This document shows positions 2,406 to 35,626 of a DNA stretch of 64,000 nucleotides, piece after piece. The stretch is from a virus. Taxonomy: Duplodnaviria > Heunggongvirae > Uroviricota > Caudoviricetes. The stretch is from IMG/VR virus record IMGVR_UViG_3300012983_000030; one strand, written 5' to 3'. Made by a program: the position numbers and the translations under genes. Positions within the stretch are counted from its first letter, which is position 1; the number at the start of each line of letters is the position of its first letter. The notes beneath the pieces were generated by a model that worked only from the letters and a program-made list of their open reading frames with translations, was not told the DNA's origin and did not search any database.

Positions 2406-4400
2406 TTATGCGCCAAGAGTTTCTACAGAAACTGTAGTATCTGCACCCATAACTGTAGTATTCAAAAGAATAACTTCAGCTGTATATGTAGGCCATAAGT
2501 AAATATCAATAACTAATTGATTATTTGCAATTACTTGTGGAGTATTATTTGACTCATCGCAGACAACTTGGAATTTTTGAATACCTTCTGCAGAAAGGAT
2601 TGTATTCAAGAAGCTATTGAATTGCAATGTAATTTGCATACGTGTATATGCTGTATTATTTTCAAATAAATGATATCTAGCAGCATCACGTAATACAGTT
2701 TCAATATAAATAACTGTTCTTGCTACGTTAATTCTATCTAAAGCAGATGGTTTAGCTTGTAATGTTCTTTGACCCCAGTTAACATAACCAGCACCTGGAT
2801 TACGAATAATACAGTTGATTTGGTTATCTGTATATAATGTGCCACCTTGAACATTATCATAATATTGAGTTAAACCAGTAGGTGATACAGCAGCTGCGGC
2901 TAATACACCACGATTTAAACCAGCAGGAGCAACCCAAGGCTCATATGCACCCATAATTTTAGCAACATATGCAGAAGGACACATTACGAAATTTGCACGA
3001 CCTTGAACTGAGTCATATGTTTTAACCCAAGGTGAACTTAATGCACCACGATAAGTATTAAAACCTTGAAGGTTCTTTCTCCAATCGATAGCATTTTCCA
3101 TAGAAGTTTCTGTCATTGGAACATCAAATAAACAGAAACAGTCACGACGGTGTTCGGCAATTTCTAACATTTTAGATTGATATGCAACATTACCTTTATT
3201 TACATAACCACTATTCATAAGTAATGAAACATTAACTTGTGAACGGTCACGGAATAATTCCCATGCATTACATAAATCAACATATTTTTTAGCTGCATCT
3301 GTCCAAATACCAGATTGACCATTTTCTAAAGCAATGTTTTCACCAAATGTTGGAACAACTGCTGCGTCTGGATCAATATCTAAGAAATTGTTATTTACAA
3401 ATACTTGAATATAATTAGAAGTACCATTTACAACGTCTTCTAAAAACATTGAATTACCATAATTATCTTGTGCATGATATAATGTACAATATTCAAATGT
3501 TTCAAGAGTTTGCATTACACGACCAATTTTTTCTTTAACTACAATACTAAATGTAGTTTCGTTTGTTTCTGGATAACGACCAACTCTTGCATTTGAATCT
3601 ACAACAGATTCGATTGCACCATCAACAAAATAAGAAATAGTTCCTTGAGTACGATCTTCATTTACTGAAAAATCATATACTGTAAATGTGCCATTCAAAG
3701 CACTTTCTTTTTCTACTGGATCAGTAACTTTCATTCTAGAAACAGCAATTTTAGAATTTTCTTCTAATCCATCTACAACTTCATAAGGAACAGTAACAGT
3801 AACTAAAGTTCTTGGTGTTTCACCAGATTCAACTTCAAGTTTAGTAGGAGCTAAAACGGCATAAGCTCTGTTTTCATTAATTGTACTATCAGCAATAGAA
3901 ATAAATAATTTTCTATTATTTGGATCAGTAGCTGTAACAATAAACGCTGATTCAAAATCTTCTGGTTCAAATAAACCTGAAGCTGAACCAGAGTCACGTG
4001 AATTTTCAGCAGCTGTTATTTCTTCATACCAGTAACCAGCATTTGTAGGTCTTGGTTTATCAGCTGTGTTTACTAAAACAGTAGCTGCGGCCCATACTGC
4101 ATCATTTTCACGATTTTCTGGTAAATCATCTGGATCACCAACTGGAACAACACGTACAAATTGATGTTCTGCAATAGATTCTGAAGCAACTGCTAATGAA
4201 TAACCAGCGTAACCATAACGAGAACTTAATGTACCAAAACGATCAATAAAACCTTGTAATGATGATAATAAAGTTGGTTTAAATACTGGACCATATTCTG
4301 CTTCACCAACATAAGCACATGCAGTAGTAGCATTATCTGCAACTACTCCACTAAGGTCTCTAATGCTTGGGTAAACGCCCGGAAATTTGTAGCTTGCCAT
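2406..4400 (-). CDS. contractile tail sheath protein (T4 gp18-like)
   Basis: Conserved C-terminal motifs shared with T4 gp18: PAGLNRG (T4 has PAGYNRG), FDRINV, and RVVCDxxNNTPxVI followed by a FYIQP-like segment. N-terminal FPGVY-type start. Shine-Dalgarno AAGGA. Confidence 0.85.
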   Translation of the reverse strand: MASYKFPGVYPSIRDLSGVVADNATTACAYVGEAEYGPVFKPTLLSSLQGFIDRFGTLSSRYGYAGYSLAVASESIAEHQFVRVVPVGDPDDLPENRENDAVWAAATVLVNTADKPRPTNAGYWYEEITAAENSRDSGSASGLFEPEDFESAFIVTATDPNNRKLFISIADSTINENRAYAVLAPTKLEVESGETPRTLVTVTVPYEVVDGLEENSKIAVSRMKVTDPVEKESALNGTFTVYDFSVNEDRTQGTISYFVDGAIESVVDSNARVGRYPETNETTFSIVVKEKIGRVMQTLETFEYCTLYHAQDNYGNSMFLEDVVNGTSNYIQVFVNNNFLDIDPDAAVVPTFGENIALENGQSGIWTDAAKKYVDLCNAWELFRDRSQVNVSLLMNSGYVNKGNVAYQSKMLEIAEHRRDCFCLFDVPMTETSMENAIDWRKNLQGFNTYRGALSSPWVKTYDSVQGRANFVMCPSAYVAKIMGAYEPWVAPAGLNRGVLAAAAVSPTGLTQYYDNVQGGTLYTDNQINCIIRNPGAGYVNWGQRTLQAKPSALDRINVARTVIYIETVLRDAARYHLFENNTAYTRMQITLQFNSFLNTILSAEGIQKFQVVCDESNNTPQVIANNQLVIDIYLWPTYTAEVILLNTTVMGADTTVSVETLGA

Positions 4401-4647
4401 TTCATTAATTCCTTATTTTTTAAGTTTAATATTAATATAATTCATAAATGTTAGAACTTTCAAACAGGTATAACGAATTGACAATTTAAATTATACCGAG
4501 TCTAAATTCTTCAATATTAAAGAACTCCATATAATCGAAATTGTTTATACTTATATATTTGGATGTAAATCTGGATTAGTTTTTTATTTATATATATTGT
4601 TAGAACGACTCTTCCATTTTATATTAATAATTACTGATATTATATAA

Positions 4648-21582: not shown

Positions 21583-21658
21583 GGTCCGTTGGGAAAACAG
21601 TTAATCCGCCTCCCTGTCACGGAGGAGATAATCGGGGCAGCACCGATACGGATCGCCA
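21583..21658 (+). tRNA. tRNA-Asp(GTC): tRNA-Asp (anticodon GTC)
   Basis: Anticodon arm CCTCC-CTGTCAC-GGAGG, T-arm ATCGG...CCGAT, acceptor pairs, CCA encoded. Confidence 0.55.
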
Positions 21659-21821: not shown

Positions 21822-22754
21822 ATGAAAATAAATGAAGATCTTATAAATAAAGCTTTGGAAGTAGCAACATCTCAAAAAGAATTTTATAGAATAATTGGTT
21901 ATAAAAATGGAAATGTTGGAAGTAATACAGATAAACGCTATAAAAAATTTTTGTTAGATACAAAAAATATTAATATAATTGAATACTTTTTAGAAAAACA
22001 AAAATTGTTAAATAAAAGTATAAATCAAGAAGAAAAAATATGTAAAAATTGTGGAAAAATATTTGTTGGTAAATATTCAAAAAATTGTTCTGGAGAATTT
22101 TGTTGTTTAAAATGCAGTAGAATATATGTTGCCAATTTAAATAAAACAGAAAAAAGAGAAAAAATACGTTTAGGATTGAAAAGACATTATGATAAATTAA
22201 TTGATTTTATACCAAAATATCAATCTAAAATTAAACCTTTTTATAAAAAATGTATTATTTGTGGTAAAGAATTTAAAACAATAAAAGCTAAAACAAAAAC
22301 ATGTAGTCATAGTTGTGCTTCAAAATTGGCATATAAAGTTTCAAAAGAAAAATATCAAGATTGGAAATTTATACAAGGAGGTTTTAGAGAAAAATCTTCA
22401 AGAGGTAAACAAGGTTGGTATAAAAATATTTTTTGTAATTCTCAATGGGAATTGGCTTTTGTAATATATTGTTTAGATCATAATATAAAAATAGAAAGAA
22501 ATAAAGAAAACTTTATATATTTTTATAAAAATAAACAACATTTATTTTATCCTGATTTTATTGTTAATGGAAAATTAGTTGAAATAAAAAATTATTGGCG
22601 TGAAATAAATGATATTAAAATAAATGCAGTTAAACAAATAAAAGATATAGATATTTTATATACAAAAGAGTTAGAATATGTTTTTGATTATATCTTAAAT
22701 AAATATGGAAAAGATAAAAGACATATTTATGAATTATATGAAAAAACATTATAG
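21822..22754 (+). CDS. zinc-finger protein, probably a homing-endonuclease-like gene embedded in the tRNA array
   Basis: Several CxxC pairs. The N-terminal region resembles that of the HNH gene at 34849. Its position between tRNAs is typical of mobile endonucleases. Confidence 0.4.
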   Translation: MKINEDLINKALEVATSQKEFYRIIGYKNGNVGSNTDKRYKKFLLDTKNINIIEYFLEKQKLLNKSINQEEKICKNCGKIFVGKYSKNCSGEFCCLKCSRIYVANLNKTEKREKIRLGLKRHYDKLIDFIPKYQSKIKPFYKKCIICGKEFKTIKAKTKTCSHSCASKLAYKVSKEKYQDWKFIQGGFREKSSRGKQGWYKNIFCNSQWELAFVIYCLDHNIKIERNKENFIYFYKNKQHLFYPDFIVNGKLVEIKNYWREINDIKINAVKQIKDIDILYTKELEYVFDYILNKYGKDKRHIYELYEKTL

Positions 22755-23643: not shown

Positions 23644-23735
23644 TGGGGGTCGGTAAAACTATCCTTACAGATGCTAGCTATAGTTTGGACGTTTACATAG
23701 GTTGCGCAATGACACCGATATAGCTACCCCCGCCA
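23644..23735 (+). ncRNA. non-canonical tRNA-like RNA of about 92 nt (GGGGGT...ACCCCCGCCA ends, internal 8-bp stem, no TTCGA T-loop)
   Basis: Closing helix GGGGGT/ACCCCC with a CCA-like 3' end; inner stem TAGCTATA/TATAGCTA. It ends 2 nt before tRNA-Glu. Confidence 0.3.
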
Positions 23736-25303: not shown

Positions 25304-25419
25304 CGAGAAGTAGCTCAGTCTGGTAGAGCACGTATTTGTATTTAGTCCTAAATACGTACAGCATTATATTTTTTTGCTTGGTAAGCACGTGGTCATTGGT
25401 TCGAATCCAATCTTCTCGC
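25304..25419 (+). ncRNA. tRNA-like gene with a canonical 5' half and T-arm but an extra internal segment of about 42 nt
   Basis: 5' CGAGAAG-TA-GCTCAGTCTGGTAGAGC, T-arm ATTGGTTCGAATCCAAT, acceptor 3' CTTCTCG. The insert holds a 7-bp hairpin (CGTATTT/AAATACG) and a T-run. AGCACGT recurs on both sides of the insert. Confidence 0.4.
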
Positions 25420-25968: not shown

Positions 25969-26108
25969 TTTTTAATTTTAACTTCTTGTGGTGTAAGCGA
26001 TAGGTTTAATAATACTATAGCTCTTTTATTAAATCCTAACGGTAGTAGCTTAATTCCCACTAAGGTTTAGGTACAAGTGCAAGTCTTGTCAAGAAGAACA
26101 TTTTTTAT

Positions 26109-26188
26109 GGGGTGTTAAATCTGGTTCTAGAACAGATTGCTTAGGATGTAGGTCCAAGATAACGTGTGAAAATCATGTGGCCCCGCCA
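26109..26188 (+). ncRNA. non-canonical tRNA-like or structured RNA of about 80 nt (GGGGTGT...GGCCCCGCCA)
   Basis: Terminal helix with a CCA-like end followed by a T-run; internal palindromic hairpin AATCTGGTTCTAGAACAGATT; no canonical T-loop. Confidence 0.25.
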
Positions 26189-26277
26189 TTTTTTATAATA
26201 TTAAATATAATATTGTTTTACTTTCTAAATAATGTATATTAAATAATAAAAGTTGAAATTATTTAGAAAGGTTTAAA

Positions 26278-26700: not shown

Positions 26701-28266
26701 ATGAATACTTATATTGATGTTTTAGGTTTAGATAAAAATCACACTGAAATTAAACCAGCTCGTGTAAAGACAAATAGTTTTATCAAAGCTCAAACTAATA
26801 AAACGTTTACTGAAAACGGGGCTTTGACTAATGCTTCTTCTTTATCTAAAATTGTTGATTGGTTTTTTCATGGAGCTGCTCTTCGTAAAGCTGAAGAAAA
26901 ACGTATTTTAAATTTATTCACAGATGCATTTAAAGAGAATCCTACTAGTGCTTTACGTATTTTATTTTATATTCGTGATATTCGCGGTGGACAAGGCGAA
27001 CGTCGTACTTTTAGAATTTGTTTGCAATGGCTTGGAAATTATGAAGCAGAATGGTTATCAAAAAATCTATCATTGATTTTTGAATATGGTAGATGGGATG
27101 ATTACTTTGTATTATTTGATACTAAAATTGCTAATACAGTAATTGATTTCATTGGAAGCCAACTTGAAAAAGATTTGAAACATCATGTTAATAATGAAAT
27201 AAGTAATCTTTCGTTGTTAGCAAAATGGATGCCTTCTGAAGCAAGTGTTAAGTATGAAACAAAAAAATATTATAATGCTTTACTTAAAACTGGTAAATTT
27301 GGTACAAAACGTAATTATCGTAAAGCAATCAGTATTTTAAGAAAAGACTTAGATATTGTTGAAAGAAAATTATCTGCTAAAGAATACTCTAATATTGATT
27401 ATGAAAAATTACCTTCATATGCAATGTTAAAATATTCTAAGCCTCGTGTTTATAATGGTATGGAAGGTAGCTTTTTAAGAAATGATAAAAAGCGTTTTTC
27501 TGAATACTTAGATAAAGTAAATAAAGGTGAAACAAAAATAAACGCTAAGACTTTATATCCATACGATTTAGCACGTGAATATACTGATAATCTTTATTGG
27601 AAGTGTACTTATAAAAAATCTGAGTTAAATGCTACTATTGAAGCTCAATGGAAAGCATTACCAGATTATGTTCCAGAAATAAACGGATTAGTAGTATGTG
27701 ATACTTCTGGTTCAATGAATGGTTTGCCTATGGCAGTAGCTATGTCTTTAGCAGTTTATATTGCAGAAAGAAATAAATCTGAAATTTGGAAAAATTATGT
27801 AATACCATTTTCATCTTCAGCTAAATTTATGGAAGTATCTGGTGAAACACTTCTTGAAAAATTAATATCAATATATACTGGTGATTGTAGTAATACAAAT
27901 TTACAAGCAGTATTTGATTTAATTTTAAATAGAGCTAAGGCAGCAAATGTATTGGCAGAAGACATGCCAAAACAATTGTTGATTATAAGTGATATGGAAT
28001 TTGATTCTACTTCATTTGGATATACAAATTATGAAAAAATTAAACATAAGTATAAAGAGAGTGGATATGTTTTACCAAAATTAGTTTGGTGGAATGTAGA
28101 CAGTAGAAATACACAAACTCCAGTTACTATTGATGATAAAAATAATTTGTTATTGTCTGGATCATCTCCTTCTTGCTTAAAAGTAGCTTTATCTGGAGAG
28201 TTTGATATAGTTGAAACAATAAATAAAATTATTGAACAAGAACGATATAGTTGTATAAATTATTAA
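26701..28266 (+). CDS. DUF2828-like protein with a C-terminal von Willebrand A (MIDAS) domain
   Basis: MIDAS motif VVCDTSGSMNG; N-terminal region ILFYIRDIRGGQGERR; 521 aa. Confidence 0.5.
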   Translation: MNTYIDVLGLDKNHTEIKPARVKTNSFIKAQTNKTFTENGALTNASSLSKIVDWFFHGAALRKAEEKRILNLFTDAFKENPTSALRILFYIRDIRGGQGERRTFRICLQWLGNYEAEWLSKNLSLIFEYGRWDDYFVLFDTKIANTVIDFIGSQLEKDLKHHVNNEISNLSLLAKWMPSEASVKYETKKYYNALLKTGKFGTKRNYRKAISILRKDLDIVERKLSAKEYSNIDYEKLPSYAMLKYSKPRVYNGMEGSFLRNDKKRFSEYLDKVNKGETKINAKTLYPYDLAREYTDNLYWKCTYKKSELNATIEAQWKALPDYVPEINGLVVCDTSGSMNGLPMAVAMSLAVYIAERNKSEIWKNYVIPFSSSAKFMEVSGETLLEKLISIYTGDCSNTNLQAVFDLILNRAKAANVLAEDMPKQLLIISDMEFDSTSFGYTNYEKIKHKYKESGYVLPKLVWWNVDSRNTQTPVTIDDKNNLLLSGSSPSCLKVALSGEFDIVETINKIIEQERYSCINY

Positions 28267-34755: not shown

Positions 34756-34829
34756 AGGGGTTTAGTTTAATGGTAAAACCTTACTCTCCAAAAGTAAAGA
34801 TGATAGTTCGATTCTGTCAACCCTTGCCA
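34756..34829 (+). tRNA. tRNA-Trp(CCA): tRNA-Trp (anticodon CCA)
   Basis: Anticodon arm TTACT-CTCCAAA-AGTAA, T-arm GATAGTTCGATTCTGTC, CCA encoded. Confidence 0.6.
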
Positions 34830-34848: not shown

Positions 34849-35328
34849 ATGAAAAGAATAAGTAAAATATTAAGTATAAGTCATCAAGAATTGCAAGATA
34901 TAATTGATGTTTCAAATTCATTATCAGATATTTTAGTTAAATTAGGATACAGTCCAAATGGTGGAACAAATTATGTAACTTTAAAGAATAGATTATATAA
35001 TGAAAATTTTGATTTAAAAAAATTATTAGAAAAGCGTAAAAATAATTATAGAAATATTAAATTAAAAAATGCTGAAGAAGTTTTTATACAAAATTCCATG
35101 TATGCAAGACATAATTTAAAAAGAAGAATATTAAAAGATAATTTAATACTATATAAATGTGCTATTTGTGGGCAAGAACCTATTTGGAATGGAAAAGAAT
35201 TAGTATTAGTTTTAGATCACATAAATGGAATAAATAATGATAATAGATTAGAAAATTTAAGATTTTTATGTCCAAATTGTAATGCTCAACAAGATACTTT
35301 TGCGGCTAAAAATAAAAATAAACATTAA
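34849..35328 (+). CDS. HNH homing endonuclease
   Basis: HNH motif LVLDHINGINNDNRLENLRFLCPNCNAQ and an N-terminal DNA-binding region. It lies inside the tRNA array. Confidence 0.75.
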   Translation: MKRISKILSISHQELQDIIDVSNSLSDILVKLGYSPNGGTNYVTLKNRLYNENFDLKKLLEKRKNNYRNIKLKNAEEVFIQNSMYARHNLKRRILKDNLILYKCAICGQEPIWNGKELVLVLDHINGINNDNRLENLRFLCPNCNAQQDTFAAKNKNKH

Positions 35329-35393: not shown

Positions 35394-35469
35394 GTGTTCG
35401 TAGCTTAATTGGTAAAGCGCTAGATTGTGGTTCTGGAGGATATGGGTTCAAGTCCCATCGATCACCCCA
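35394..35469 (+). tRNA. tRNA-His(GTG): tRNA-His (anticodon GTG)
   Basis: D-arm TAGCTTAATTGGTAAAGC, anticodon arm CTAGA-TTGTGGT-TCTGG, T-arm TGGGTTCAAGTCCCA, CCA encoded. Confidence 0.6.
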
Positions 35470-35477
35470 ATTATTAT

Positions 35478-35550
35478 ATACCCGTGAGTCAAGTGAAGCA
35501 TACGGTTTCCATCATCGTAAGAGTAGGACATCTTCCTGCCGGGTATGCCA
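35478..35550 (+). ncRNA. tRNA-sized (73 nt) non-canonical tRNA-like gene
   Basis: Perfect acceptor ATACCCG/CGGGTAT plus GCCA. The anticodon-like arm ACGGT-TTCCATC-ATCGT has a CCA triplet with T at position 37. The T-arm GTAGG-ACATCTT-CCTGC lacks the TTCGA consensus, and the D-arm is unclear. Confidence 0.3.
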
Positions 35551-35551
35551 C

Positions 35552-35626
35552 AGAGGTATAGTTCAGTAGTAGAACATTGATCCCCAAAACCAAATGTCGG
35601 GAGTTCGAATCTCTCTGCCTCTGCCA
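35552..35626 (+). tRNA. tRNA, isotype uncertain (anticodon loop CCCCAAA)
   Basis: Acceptor AGAGGTA/TGCCTCT, D-arm TAGTTCAGTAGTAGAAC, T-arm GGGAGTTCGAATCTCTC, CCA encoded. The anticodon stem has one mismatch and position 33 is C. Confidence 0.45.

What the first reader, a model, noticed from the sequence alone, without database searches (positions are those of the whole stretch)
23644..23735. Non-canonical tRNA-like RNAs (GGGGGT...CCCCCGCCA) at three places in the array
The elements at 23644-23735, 26109-26188 and 35478-35550 have tRNA-like terminal helices and encoded CCA, and one is exactly 73 nt. All lack the conserved TTCGA T-loop and a regular D-arm. The first one has an 8-bp internal stem and ends 2 nt before tRNA-Glu, which suggests co-transcription and RNase P or RNase Z processing. 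They may be decoys, processing signals, or divergent tRNAs; the 35478 element, for example, has a CCA-anticodon arm.
Basis: seen in the sequence. Interest (0 to 1): 0.55.

Follow-up and report, generated by a model that had tools for sequence, protein, structure and literature searches.

The report
Novel tRNA-capped small RNAs in phage
The three elements are real but are three different things: two previously undescribed families of small structured RNAs with a tRNA-style end, found in the tRNA gene arrays of uncultured giant phages, and one very divergent tryptophan-type tRNA gene. Their function is not known.

Summary
All three elements exist at the stated coordinates and are far beyond chance. 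They do not share one motif and are not one family.

- **E1 (23645-23735)** has homologues in six other contigs. They fall into two paralogous forms, 89-91 nt and 133-136 nt.
- **E2 (26109-26188)** has eight distinct variants. All 23 pairs of a four-helix cloverleaf are kept, and 9 pairs show compensatory changes.
- **Shared features of E1 and E2:** each has a G1 start, a GC-rich terminal helix and an encoded RCCA tail (one E2 variant reads ACCG). Each sits 2-14 nt from neighbouring tRNAs.
- **Not tRNAs by any model:** neither is detected by Rfam (E<=10) or by ARAGORN in standard mode, and neither occurs in 50,697 deposited phage genomes.
- **Self-complementary loops:** each carries an apical loop whose 6-8-nt self-complementary core changes sequence between lineages but stays self-complementary. 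This suggests loop-loop dimerisation.
- **E3 (35478-35550)** is a strict 73-nt cloverleaf with anticodon CCA, A1:U72 and G73 but degenerate D and T loops. It occurs only in close relatives.

Best reading: E1 and E2 are stable non-decoding RNAs matured by the tRNA-processing machinery, and E3 is a remodelled tRNA-Trp. Function is unknown. A link to the nearby DUF2828 protein is not supported.

The parts
23645..23735 (+). E1 (E1a subfamily), a 91-nt structured RNA. It lies 14 nt after tRNA-Gly(GCC) and 2 nt before tRNA-Glu.
   Evidence: Sequence. Homologues: L211, L228 and L236 (E1a); L008, L012 and L236 (E1b). Consensus folds. No Rfam or ARAGORN hit. No match in deposited phages.
23645..23650 (+). 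E1 terminal helix P1, 5' strand (GGGGGU). It pairs with 23726-23731 (ACCCCC).
   Evidence: All seven homologues keep Watson-Crick pairing: GGGGGU/ACCCCC, GGGAGU/ACUCCC and GGAGGU/ACCUCC. Two positions show compensatory change.
23651..23654 (+). E1 helix P2, 5' strand (CGGU). It pairs with 23714-23717 (ACCG).
   Evidence: CGGU/ACCG versus CUGU/ACAG in relatives, a compensatory change.
23673..23678 (+). Self-complementary hexamer GCUAGC in the 14-nt apical loop of E1.
   Evidence: At the aligned position, E1a has GCUAGC (window) or ACUAGU (L228, L211, L236). E1b has UCUAGA, CAGCUG or CCUAGG between the conserved flanks GAU and UAUGUAAAA.
23710..23725 (+). Invariant 3' motif of E1, UGACAC-N-GAUAUAG. 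It includes the 8-nt 3' bulge (23718-23725) between P2 and P1.
   Evidence: Identical in all seven E1a and E1b sequences apart from the covarying P2 base.
23732..23735 (+). E1 tail GCCA (discriminator plus encoded CCA).
   Evidence: The tail is RCCA in all seven homologues.
26109..26188 (+). E2, an 80-nt four-helix (cloverleaf-shaped) RNA. It lies 8 nt after the tRNA-like element E5 and is followed by a T-run.
   Evidence: Eight distinct variants were aligned (A2). All 23 pairs are 100% kept, and 9 pairs show changes on both sides. Covariance model R1 finds exactly one copy per related contig and none in the roughly 1.4 Mb of mostly unrelated viral contigs searched.
26109..26113 (+). E2 terminal helix, 5' strand. 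It pairs with 26180-26184. A purine-purine pair G6/G71 follows, and then tail GCCA at 26185-26188.
   Evidence: GGGGU/GCCCC, GGGGC/GCCCC, GCCCU/AGGGC, GCCCU/GGGGC and GCCCC/GGGGC. Four of the 5 pairs are compensatory. Positions 6 and 71 covary G/G to A/A. The tail is RCCA in 7 of 8 variants and ACCG in L001.
26118..26138 (+). E2 hairpin H1: a 6-bp stem with a 9-nt loop that holds the self-complementary UUCUAGAA (26125-26132).
   Evidence: The stem covaries at 5 of its 6 pairs: AAUCUG/CAGAUU, UAUCUA/UAGAUA and UAGUAA/UUACUA in L220, where a seventh pair, U-A, follows. The loop core is UUCUAGAA, UCGCGA or GACGUC.
26140..26178 (+). Near-invariant E2 core: hairpin H2 (26140-26158), a linker, and hairpin H3 (26162-26178; 5-bp stem, 7-nt loop UGAAAAU).
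   Evidence: Only three positions vary among the eight variants. The two in stems keep pairing, U.G to U-A and G.U to A-U.
35478..35550 (+). E3, a 73-nt cloverleaf lying 8 nt after tRNA-His and 1 nt before tRNA-Trp(CCA). Acceptor stem 35478-35484 / 35540-35546. Anticodon arm 35502-35518, with CCA at 35509-35511. T-arm position 35523-35539, with loop ACAUCUU. G73 at 35547 and CCA at 35548-35550.
   Evidence: It passes the strict geometric cloverleaf filter, which gives 0 hits in shuffles. ARAGORN calls Trp(cca) only in relaxed mitochondrial mode. It is present at 94-99% identity in close relatives L245-L252, where both stem substitutions keep pairing. It is absent from the more distant relatives L011 and L012.
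21583..21658 (+). It is a 76-nt cloverleaf with anticodon GUC (Asp) and T-loop GGCAGCA.
   Evidence: Family members with other anticodons occur in other viral contigs.
25982..26100 (+). E5, a fifth element of about 119 nt. It is tRNA-like, with acceptor CUUCUUG/CAAGAAG, T-arm ACAAG-UGCAAGU-CUUGU and tail AACA. It lies directly upstream of E2.
   Evidence: A homologue in L012 shows compensatory changes.

Best explanation
The window is part of an uncultured, AT-rich phage whose longest matching contig is 239 kb. Its 14-kb tRNA array also carries several non-canonical genes.

E1 and E2 are two unrelated families of small, structured, non-decoding RNAs. Each is capped by a tRNA-style end:
- U at -1 and G at +1;
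- a 5-6-bp GC-rich helix stacked on a second helix;
- a purine discriminator and an encoded CCA.

Inferred mechanism. They are transcribed together with the flanking tRNAs. RNase P cuts at G1. RNase P cleavage of the downstream tRNA, or a nearby terminator, frees the 3' side. Exonucleases then trim back to the CCA end, which the CCA-adding enzyme can repair. This would yield stable RNAs of about 80-135 nt. The functional part is the body. In E2 this is the near-invariant H2-H3 core. In E1 it is the invariant UGACAC-N-GAUAUAG motif. Each also has an apical loop with a covarying self-complementary hexamer, which most simply specifies symmetric loop-loop (kissing) dimerisation.

E3 is a different object. 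It is a lineage-restricted tRNA-Trp-type gene with anticodon CCA, A1:U72 and G73, whose stems are intact but whose D and T loops have been replaced. It is therefore probably still handled as a tRNA (processed, perhaps charged), but with a non-standard elbow.

What is shown: the sequences, conservation, covariation, genomic format and absence from known families. What is inferred: expression, processing, dimerisation and any cellular role.
For: Real and non-random.

Conservation and covariation:
- E2: 23 of 23 pairs kept in 8 variants, 9 of them compensatory, against at most 2 in versions with the partner slid by 1-3 columns.
- E1: compensatory changes in P1 and P2 across 7 sequences.

tRNA-type gene format: U-1 in 23 of 29 array genes, including E1-E4; an encoded CCA; spacers of 1-14 nt. 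E1 homologues sit 2-5 nt from flanking tRNAs in L211, L228, L236 and L008. E2 follows a tRNA-Tyr-like gene by 4-5 nt in L006, L221 and L223.

Not decoding tRNAs: there is no Rfam tRNA, tmRNA or other hit at E<=10. ARAGORN in standard mode is negative. There is no sequence similarity to the array's own tRNAs.

Self-complementary loops: they are kept at aligned positions while the sequence changes (E2: UUCUAGAA, UCGCGA, GACGUC; E1a: GCUAGC, ACUAGU; E1b: UCUAGA, CAGCUG, CCUAGG). The joint chance is about 1e-5 to 1e-6.

E3: strict cloverleaf. Its Trp identity elements match PMC12135181. Substitutions among relatives keep the stems paired.
Against: - There are no expression data, so none of the RNA ends is mapped.
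- The acceptor-type stacks are shorter or interrupted compared with a tRNA. E2 has 5 bp, a G.G pair and 5 bp. E1 has 6 bp and 4-5 bp with an 8-nt bulge. RNase P recognition is therefore plausible but unproven.
- One E2 variant (L001) ends ACCG, and two E3 variants end ACUA instead of RCCA.
- Six-nucleotide palindromes are common in AT-rich sequence. They occur about once per tRNA in this window, and the self-duplex energies of individual loops are not exceptional. The dimer argument therefore rests on conservation of self-complementarity across few lineages and was noticed post hoc.
- In E1 the same apical loop could instead pair with the invariant 3' bulge (6-8 bp) as a pseudoknot.
- The sample is small and phylogenetically narrow: 8 E2 variants, 7 E1 sequences and near-identical E3 copies.
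Confidence: 0.6

Rival explanations
1. All three are functional decoding tRNAs with unusual bodies. E3 would read UGG (Trp). E2 would be a tRNA-Tyr whose hairpin H2 is an anticodon arm with loop AUGUAGR (U33, GUA, R37). E1 would have an unrecognised anticodon.
For: - E3 has full cloverleaf geometry, U33, anticodon CCA, A1:U72 and G73.
- E4, of the same kind, is the only Asp decoder in the array, so such bodies probably do decode.
- ARAGORN in relaxed mitochondrial mode draws E2 as Tyr(gta).
- E2 directly follows a tRNA-Tyr-like gene in L006, L221 and L223, just as E3 adjoins tRNA-Trp.
Against: - E1 has no candidate anticodon arm in any ARAGORN mode.
- For E2 the Tyr reading needs an A.C mismatch in the stem. 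The more stable fold is a 7-bp stem with a tetraloop.
- E2's acceptor helix is 5 bp, and its 'D arm' is a 6-bp stem with a palindromic loop.
- Every E2-bearing genome that could be checked also has another tRNA-Tyr gene.
- E3 has U37 and lacks the elbow nucleotides that ribosomes contact. The genome already has two other Trp(CCA) genes.
Confidence: 0.3
2. They are tRNA-end mimics that act as decoys or sponges. The targets would be host factors that attack or modify tRNAs during infection, such as anticodon nucleases, acceptor-end or CCA-modifying toxins, or phage or host tRNA-binding proteins.
For: - The tRNA-like acceptor end plus CCA is the most conserved architectural feature of E1 and E2.
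- The array shows other signs of diversification around tRNA recognition. There are three CCA-anticodon genes, one of them with C33. There are also elbow-remodelled tRNAs, namely E4 and the UUGCAAAAU T-loops in relatives.
- From my own recollection of the literature, phage tRNAs are known to counter tRNA-targeting defences.
Against: There is no direct evidence and no linked protein partner. Conserved internal cores and self-complementary loops are not obviously needed for a decoy of the acceptor end.
Confidence: 0.2
3. E2 (and perhaps E1) is a Y-RNA-like partner of the DUF2828/vWA protein encoded about 500 nt downstream (26701-28266). This would be analogous to Ro60/Rsr with YrlA.
For: E2 lies close to this gene in the window and in the close relatives L245-L252. 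YrlA RNAs are also tRNA-like (my own knowledge).
Against: - The Rfam YrlA and Y_RNA models give no hit on E1-E3.
- E2 occurs without a neighbouring DUF2828 gene in L006, L224 and L225. DUF2828 occurs without E2 in the 20 kb of L011.
- The protein has no detectable sequence match to solved Ro60 structures.
Confidence: 0.05
4. They are decaying tRNA pseudogenes, or merely spacers, processing punctuation or terminators with no function as RNAs.
For: - They lack the canonical loops.
- E2 is followed by a T-run in the window, and the scan flags a terminator-like hairpin at 26177-26189.
- E3 is confined to a narrow clade.
Against: - Stems are intact while loops differ, which is the opposite of neutral decay.
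- Compensatory changes occur in E1, E2 and E4.
- 37 of 40 consecutive positions in the E2 core are invariant across genomes whose DUF2828 proteins are 58% identical.
- The T-run after E2 is absent in L012, L006, L008 and L009.
Confidence: 0.07

Closest known systems
Phage T4 small stable RNAs RNAC and RNAD (species 1 and 2) in the T4 tRNA cluster
   Same: They are small non-decoding RNAs encoded directly next to tRNAs in a phage tRNA cluster. In T4, rnaD lies 1 nt after tRNA-Arg and rnaC 6 nt after rnaD. They have tRNA-like terminal pairing. Their function is still unknown (PMC3014915, PMC9697503).
   Different: There is no sequence or structural homology. T4 rnaC keeps a canonical GUUCGAAUC T arm, which E1 and E2 lack. 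T4 RNAs have no reported self-complementary loops. The phage lineage is different.
ROOL and GOLLD large ornate RNAs
   Same: They are phage or prophage non-coding RNAs of unknown function that are typically encoded near tRNA islands. They form homo-oligomers through kissing loops whose complementarity is conserved by covariation (PMC12286853).
   Different: They are 500-800 nt, against 80-135 nt here. No Rfam ROOL or GOLLD hit occurs in the window or in L012. Oligomerisation of E1 and E2 is only inferred.
Canonical tRNA (Rfam RF00005) and mitochondrial-type 'bizarre' tRNAs
   Same: E3 and E4 have a 7-bp acceptor stem, a 5-bp anticodon stem with a 7-nt loop and U33, a 5-bp T stem with a 7-nt loop, a discriminator and CCA. 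Like many mitochondrial tRNAs they lack the conserved D-loop and T-loop nucleotides. ARAGORN finds them only in mitochondrial mode.
   Different: They are encoded by a phage that infects bacteria and sit alongside 24 canonical tRNAs. E1 and E2 do not fit even the mitochondrial models convincingly.
Bacterial Y RNAs (YrlA) and the tRNA-like domain of tmRNA
   Same: They are non-decoding RNAs with a tRNA-like acceptor end, and they are processed by tRNA enzymes (my own knowledge).
   Different: Both retain a canonical T arm. E1-E3 give no Rfam YrlA or tmRNA hit, ARAGORN finds no tmRNA, there is no tag ORF, and there is no consistent link to a Ro-like protein.
HIV-1 DIS-type kissing-loop dimerisation hairpins
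   Same: A 6-nt self-complementary core sits in a 7-9-nt apical loop, flanked by an unpaired purine in two of the three E2 variants (G-UCGCGA-A, G-UUCUAGAA; L220 has U-GACGUC). The core differs between lineages but stays self-complementary.
   Different: This is a resemblance of sequence logic only, recalled from my own knowledge. The context is unrelated, and dimerisation was not tested here.

Membership tests
tRNA (Rfam RF00005 / ARAGORN standard) | Scores at or above the family threshold (29 bits) with the covariance model; detected by ARAGORN bacterial mode | tested here: not met
   E1, E2 and E3 give no tRNA hit even at E<=10 in a 16-kb search. ARAGORN in standard mode, and at an 80% threshold, is negative.
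tRNA (Rfam RF00005 / ARAGORN standard) | Cloverleaf geometry: 7-bp acceptor, 5-bp anticodon stem with 7-nt loop and U33, 5-bp T stem with 7-nt loop, N73-CCA | tested here: met
   This is met by E3, and by E4, under a strict filter that gives 0 hits in 40 shuffles. It is not met by E1 or E2. E2 has a 5-bp acceptor, a 6-bp 'D' stem and a 7-bp middle stem with a tetraloop.
tRNA (Rfam RF00005 / ARAGORN standard) | Conserved elbow nucleotides (G18-G19 in the D loop; U54-U55-C56-R57-A58 in the T loop) | tested here: not met
   The T-loop positions read ACAUCUU in E3 and UGAAAAU in E2. E1 has no T arm.
Bacterial tRNA-Trp (TrpRS substrate) | Anticodon CCA, discriminator G73, minor elements A1:U72 and G5:C68 (PMC12135181) | tested here: inconclusive
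   E3 has CCA, G73 and A1:U72 but C5-G68 or U5.G68. Two relatives have A73. Charging cannot be tested here.
tmRNA | tRNA-like domain with T arm plus an internal tag-peptide reading frame | tested here: not met
   ARAGORN finds no tmRNA. No hit from tRNA clan CL00001 or any other Rfam family falls on E1-E3.
Y RNA / YrlA with a Ro60-type partner | Match to RF02553/RF00019; consistent co-occurrence with a Ro/TROVE-type gene | tested here: not met
   There is no Rfam hit on E1-E3. E2 and the DUF2828 gene occur independently of each other in relatives.
T4-type tRNA-cluster small stable RNAs (RNAC/RNAD) | Encoded within a phage tRNA cluster, next to tRNAs, with terminal tRNA-like pairing | tested here: met
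T4-type tRNA-cluster small stable RNAs (RNAC/RNAD) | Sequence or structure homology to T4 rnaC or rnaD | tested here: not met
   Model R1 finds nothing in the T4 locus L212. E1, E2 and E3 have no blastn match in 50,697 phage records, which include T4.
T4-type tRNA-cluster small stable RNAs (RNAC/RNAD) | Accumulates as a stable processed RNA in infected cells | not testable with these tools
   No expression data are available.
ROOL / GOLLD | Match to the Rfam models; length of 500-800 nt | tested here: not met
   There are no hits in the window or in L012. The elements are 73-136 nt.
ROOL / GOLLD | Homo-oligomerisation through conserved intermolecular loop pairing | tested here: inconclusive
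   Self-complementary loop cores are conserved through sequence change. Assembly was not tested, and the energies of individual loops are unexceptional.

The most novel reading that the evidence does not exclude
E1 and E2 are the first small (about 80-135 nt) members of the class of phage 'tRNA-island' RNAs that self-assemble. A tRNA-style cap would give them biogenesis and stability through RNase P and the CCA enzymes. Covarying self-complementary loops would drive symmetric dimers or higher-order RNA-only assemblies. E1a has a second self-complementary site (UUGCGCAA, UUGCAA or UUAUAA), which could allow chains. These assemblies would present multiple tRNA-like ends, for example to titrate a tRNA-end-directed host defence or to organise tRNA metabolism during infection.
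Probability: 0.2. Interest if true: 0.8.

Novelty: new variant of a known kind. Interest (0 to 1): 0.6.

Why it matters
Phage tRNA islands have long been known to hold enigmatic non-coding RNAs. T4 RNAC and RNAD have had no known function for 50 years, and ROOL and GOLLD were recently shown to be self-assembling cages. None of these has an established function.

Here two new, compact, covariation-supported families sit in the same niche. Their design is simple and testable: a tRNA-type cap, an invariant core and a self-complementary loop. They are small enough for direct biochemistry and structure determination.

The same arrays also contain cloverleaf genes with intact stems but replaced elbow loops (E3, and the E4 family with several anticodons). 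If these decode, they challenge the assumption that bacterial translation needs the canonical D-loop/T-loop elbow. If they do not, they are candidates for tRNA mimicry in phage-host conflict.

In practical terms, standard annotation (ARAGORN, Rfam) misses at least five RNA genes in this 14-kb array.

Tried and rejected
- **Rfam:** all 4,227 families at gathering threshold and at E<=10 gave nothing on E1-E3. Nothing was found in the 1.2-kb non-coding stretch around E2 in L012.
- **ARAGORN:** the standard, lowered-threshold, intron and tmRNA modes were negative. Only the relaxed mitochondrial mode gave calls, for E2 and E3.
- **Alignment to the array's own tRNAs:** E1-E3 scored no better than shuffles. 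Only E4 resembles tRNA-Glu.
- **BLAST against deposited phages:** the region and each element alone gave only tRNA hits or nothing against 50,697 genomes.
- **Y-RNA / DUF2828 idea:** rejected on co-occurrence, and there is no sequence link to solved Ro60 structures. A literature search on DUF2828 was uninformative.
- **Unproductive collection scans:** a 14-specified-base E1 pattern saturated the IMG/VR scan with chance hits. An E3 pattern found nothing in IMG/VR. The E2 core found nothing in 185,579 species genomes.
- **Look-up of the window's own DnaJ protein:** it returned only 100%-identical contigs.
- **E1-E2 cross-pairing of the loops:** possible in L008 (both have UCUAGA) but not in the window or L012, so I dropped it.
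- **E2 as an intrinsic terminator:** the T-run is not conserved.
- **Pseudogene decay:** contradicted by intact, covarying stems.
- **MAFFT alignment of E1a and E1b ends:** it misregistered P1, so I counted pairs by script instead.
Full report
**Setting.** The window is AT-rich (about 29% GC) and phage-like. It encodes a tail sheath, tail fibre domains, helicases, an RNase H and an endonuclease V-type glycosylase. Identical proteins occur on contigs of up to 239 kb. Between 21.1 and 35.7 kb on the + strand lies a tRNA array. It has 23 ARAGORN tRNAs plus one Rfam-only tRNA-like gene with a large insertion. Nearly all of these genes encode their CCA, are preceded by U at -1 and are separated by 1-14 nt within sub-clusters. 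No canonical tRNA-Asp or tRNA-Lys was found.

**Observation.**
- E1 (23645-23735; G1 is one base after the stated start) reads GGGGGU...ACCCCC-GCCA and ends 2 nt before tRNA-Glu.
- E2 (26109-26188) reads GGGGU...GCCCC-GCCA.
- E3 (35478-35550, 73 nt) reads AUACCCG...CGGGUAU-GCCA.

None is found by ARAGORN in standard mode or by any of 4,227 Rfam families, even at E<=10. The GGGG...CCCCGCCA arrangement is not expected by chance (0 in 100 shuffles). A purely geometric cloverleaf filter recovers six tRNAs plus E3 and a further element, E4, with zero hits in 40 shuffles. The three share no sequence with each other or with the array's tRNAs. The common motif in the finding's title is therefore only partly accurate.

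**E2.**
- *Homologues.* A scan with its core sequence found homologues in IMG/VR and JGI/ENA metagenome contigs of 20-246 kb. Close relatives of the window's phage also carry it.
- *Structure.* Eight distinct variants align without difficulty (A2). On a four-helix structure every one of 184 cells is a standard pair. Nine of the 23 pairs show changes on both sides, whereas structures slid by 1-3 columns show at most two.
- *Terminal helix.* It flips wholesale (GGGGU/GCCCC, GGGGC/GCCCC, GCCCU/AGGGC, GCCCC/GGGGC). It is followed by a position where G/G covaries to A/A.
- *Hairpin H1.* Its 6-bp stem covaries at five of its six pairs and is largely rewritten in L220.
- *Hairpins H2 and H3.* In a 40-nt stretch only three positions vary, and the two in stems keep pairing. 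The DUF2828 proteins of the same genomes are only 58% identical.
- *Tail.* It is RCCA in seven of the eight variants and ACCG in one.
- *Specificity.* A covariance model finds exactly one copy per related contig. It finds none in the roughly 1.4 Mb of mostly unrelated viral contigs searched, in the T4 tRNA locus, or in E1.
- *Absence elsewhere.* E2 is absent from 50,697 deposited phage genomes. Its core is absent from 185,579 species-representative genomes.

**E1.**
- *Homologues.* Its invariant 3' motif (UGACAC-N-GAUAUAG...RCCA) led to homologues in IMG/VR contigs (L008, L012, L211). Two contigs binned into MAGs also carry it: L228, a 249-kb contig labelled 'Bacilli bacterium', and L236.
- *Two forms.* E1a is 89-91 nt (window, L228, L211, L236). 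E1b is 133-136 nt (L008, L012, L236). In L236 the two lie in tandem, 5 nt apart.
- *Shared features.* All seven sequences share P1 (GGGGGU/ACCCCC, GGGAGU/ACUCCC, GGAGGU/ACCUCC) and P2 (CGGU/ACCG or CUGU/ACAG). They also share an 8-nt 3' bulge and an RCCA tail, with compensatory changes in both helices.
- *Placement.* They sit 2-5 nt from flanking tRNAs.
It is perfect in the window and weaker elsewhere, so it remains an alternative pseudoknot.

**Self-complementary loops.**
- *E2, loop of H1.* It holds UUCUAGAA, UCGCGA or GACGUC in the three stem variants.
- *E1a, aligned apical-loop hexamer.* It is GCUAGC in the window and ACUAGU in three relatives, including the near-identical L228.
- *E1b, same position.* It holds UCUAGA, CAGCUG or CCUAGG between conserved flanks.
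- *Statistics.* By loop shuffles or by random draws from the window, the joint chance is about 1e-5 to 1e-6.
- *Caveats.* I noticed this post hoc. Six-nucleotide palindromes are common in this AT-rich sequence, and single-loop duplex energies are unexceptional. The argument therefore rests on persistence of self-complementarity through sequence turnover.
- *Reading.* The simplest interpretation is symmetric loop-loop dimerisation.

**E3.**
- *Distribution.* It has no homologue in IMG/VR or in deposited phages. It is missing from the more distant relatives L011 (tRNA-His, then 6 nt, then tRNA-Trp) and L012. It is present in all close relatives (L245-L252) at 94-99% identity.
- *Substitutions.* The two substitutions in stems keep pairing (C-G to U.G, and G.U to A-U). 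Two relatives have tail ACUA.
- *tRNA features.* It has perfect tRNA geometry, U33 and anticodon CCA. It also has A1:U72 and G73, which PMC12135181 lists, together with the anticodon, as identity elements of bacterial tRNA-Trp. It directly abuts a tRNA-Trp(CCA).
- *Departures.* Its T loop (ACAUCUU), its D region and U37 are non-canonical.
- *Interpretation.* Intact stems with replaced loops are the opposite of neutral decay. I read it as a remodelled tRNA-Trp-type gene whose decoding competence is open.

**Context that changes the picture.** The array holds at least two more unannotated RNAs.
- *E4 (21583-21658).* This is a strict cloverleaf with anticodon GUC and T loop GGCAGCA. Its family (UUGGUGAAACAG...GGGCAGCAC) recurs in other viral contigs with anticodons UAC, UAU and UUG.
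- *E5 (25982-26100).* This is a roughly 119-nt tRNA-like RNA just upstream of E2, conserved in L012 with compensatory changes.
- *Relatives.* They carry further oddities: a 64-nt D-armless cloverleaf, tRNAs with UUGCAAAAU T loops, and a 94-nt element with a 17-nt loop.

Non-canonical tRNA-shaped RNAs are therefore a feature of this phage clade.

**Mechanism.**
- *Shown:* sequence, conservation, covariation, gene format and absence from known families.
- *Inferred from established knowledge of bacterial tRNA maturation:* RNase P prefers U-1/G+1 and a stacked acceptor/T-type helix with RCCA, and 3' exonucleases and the CCA-adding enzyme maintain CCA ends. On this basis E1 and E2 are co-transcribed with tRNAs and matured by this machinery into stable RNAs. 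Their conserved bodies carry the function.
- *Dimerisation:* inferred from the loops.
- *Cellular role:* unknown. A decoy role for tRNA-end-binding factors and an RNA-only assembly role are the two candidates I consider most plausible.

**Rejected link.** The DUF2828/DUF7788 protein is encoded about 500 nt downstream of E2, which suggested a Ro/Y-RNA-like pair. However, E2 occurs without that gene nearby in L006, L224 and L225, and the gene occurs without E2 in L011. No Y-RNA model matches.

**Comparison with known systems.** The closest known things are the T4 tRNA-cluster RNAs RNAC and RNAD, which share the genomic niche and tRNA-like ends and whose function is still unknown. ROOL and GOLLD are also close: phage RNAs near tRNA islands that self-assemble via conserved kissing loops. 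E1 and E2 are homologous to none of these and fail the Rfam models. E3 and E4 resemble mitochondrial-type tRNAs in lacking elbow nucleotides.

**Verdict.** The finding is real. It breaks down into two new small-RNA families plus a divergent tRNA. It is partly wrong in treating the three as one class and E1 and E2 as tRNAs.

Noticed in passing
window 21583-21658 (E4); L001 18454-18527; L254, L255, L256, L265, L266: This is an unannotated 76-nt strict cloverleaf with anticodon GUC. It is the only Asp decoder in the array. Its D loop reads UUGGGAAAACAG and its T loop GGCAGCA. The same scaffold (UUGGUGAAACAG...GGGCAGCAC) occurs in other viral contigs with anticodons UAC, UAU and UUG, and with compensatory T-stem changes. 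It looks like a family of elbow-remodelled phage tRNAs.
   Followed up: partly
window 25982-26100 (E5); L012 about 4335-4452: This is a roughly 119-nt tRNA-like RNA between tRNA-Val and E2. It has a 7-bp acceptor (CUUCUUG/CAAGAAG), a T-arm ACAAG-UGCAAGU-CUUGU, a long middle hairpin and tail AACA rather than CCA. Its large loop contains CUAUAGCUC, which also occurs in the 17-nt loop of a 94-nt tRNA-like element in relatives (L012 4455-4548, L008 5695-5787, L009 2200-2293).
   Followed up: partly
window 25304-25419: This is a 116-nt tRNA-like gene found by Rfam (46.8 bits) but not by standard ARAGORN. It has canonical acceptor, D and T arms and a 44-nt insertion in the anticodon loop. ARAGORN's intron mode reads anticodon UUA. 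The insertion is too short for a group I intron. The gene is conserved at 97-100% in close relatives.
   Followed up: partly
window 35552-35626 (tRNA-Trp2): This tRNA has C instead of the universal U at position 33 and an A.C mismatch in the anticodon stem. Relatives L249 and L250 have U33. Together with Trp1 (34756-34829) and E3, the phage has three CCA-anticodon genes.
   Followed up: partly
window 26701-28266: A 521-aa DUF2828 + DUF7788 protein is encoded inside the tRNA array. Homologues at about 40% identity occur in 711 deposited phage genomes of many tRNA-rich groups (Bacillus, Listeria, Staphylococcus, Mycobacterium, Campylobacter, Vibrio and Synechococcus phages). No function is known.
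   Followed up: partly
window 34849-35328 and 35394-35469: The HNH endonuclease gene between tRNA-Trp1 and tRNA-His is absent from the close relatives L245-L252. In those relatives the adjacent tRNA-His is only about 77-80% identical, while the neighbouring genes are 94-99% identical. This suggests a homing-type replacement of the tRNA-His gene.
   Followed up: no
L012 3690-4950: About 1.2 kb around E2 in this relative has no tRNA and no Rfam match. I did not check it for ORFs. It shares conserved blocks upstream of E2 with L008 and L009 (for example GAGUGGAUAAAGGGUAAAAACUGGUGACA). It is possibly a larger uncharacterised RNA region.
   Followed up: no
L002 1544-1607 (= L012 2432-2495); L008 3483-3557; L001 12203-12276 and 14478-14551; L006 4941-5026: Relatives carry further non-canonical tRNA genes. 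These include a 64-nt D-armless cloverleaf with a CAU anticodon, Thr and Gly tRNAs with T loop UUGCAAAAU, and a Tyr(GUA) tRNA with T loop GUAGUGC that directly precedes E2.
   Followed up: no
L001 17597-18460: The 5' half of a tRNA (GGGCGAUUAGCUCAGUUGGUUAGAGCA...) lies directly downstream of E2. It is interrupted by an ORF of about 280 aa that is related (30% identity) to window ORF 21822-22754. This is probably an intron or mobile insertion in a tRNA gene.
   Followed up: no
window 23705-23712 (E1a); the aligned site in L236 and L211: E1a has a second self-complementary site just 5' of the invariant UGACAC motif. It reads UUGCGCAA in the window and L228, UUGCAA in L236 and UUAUAA in L211.
   Followed up: no
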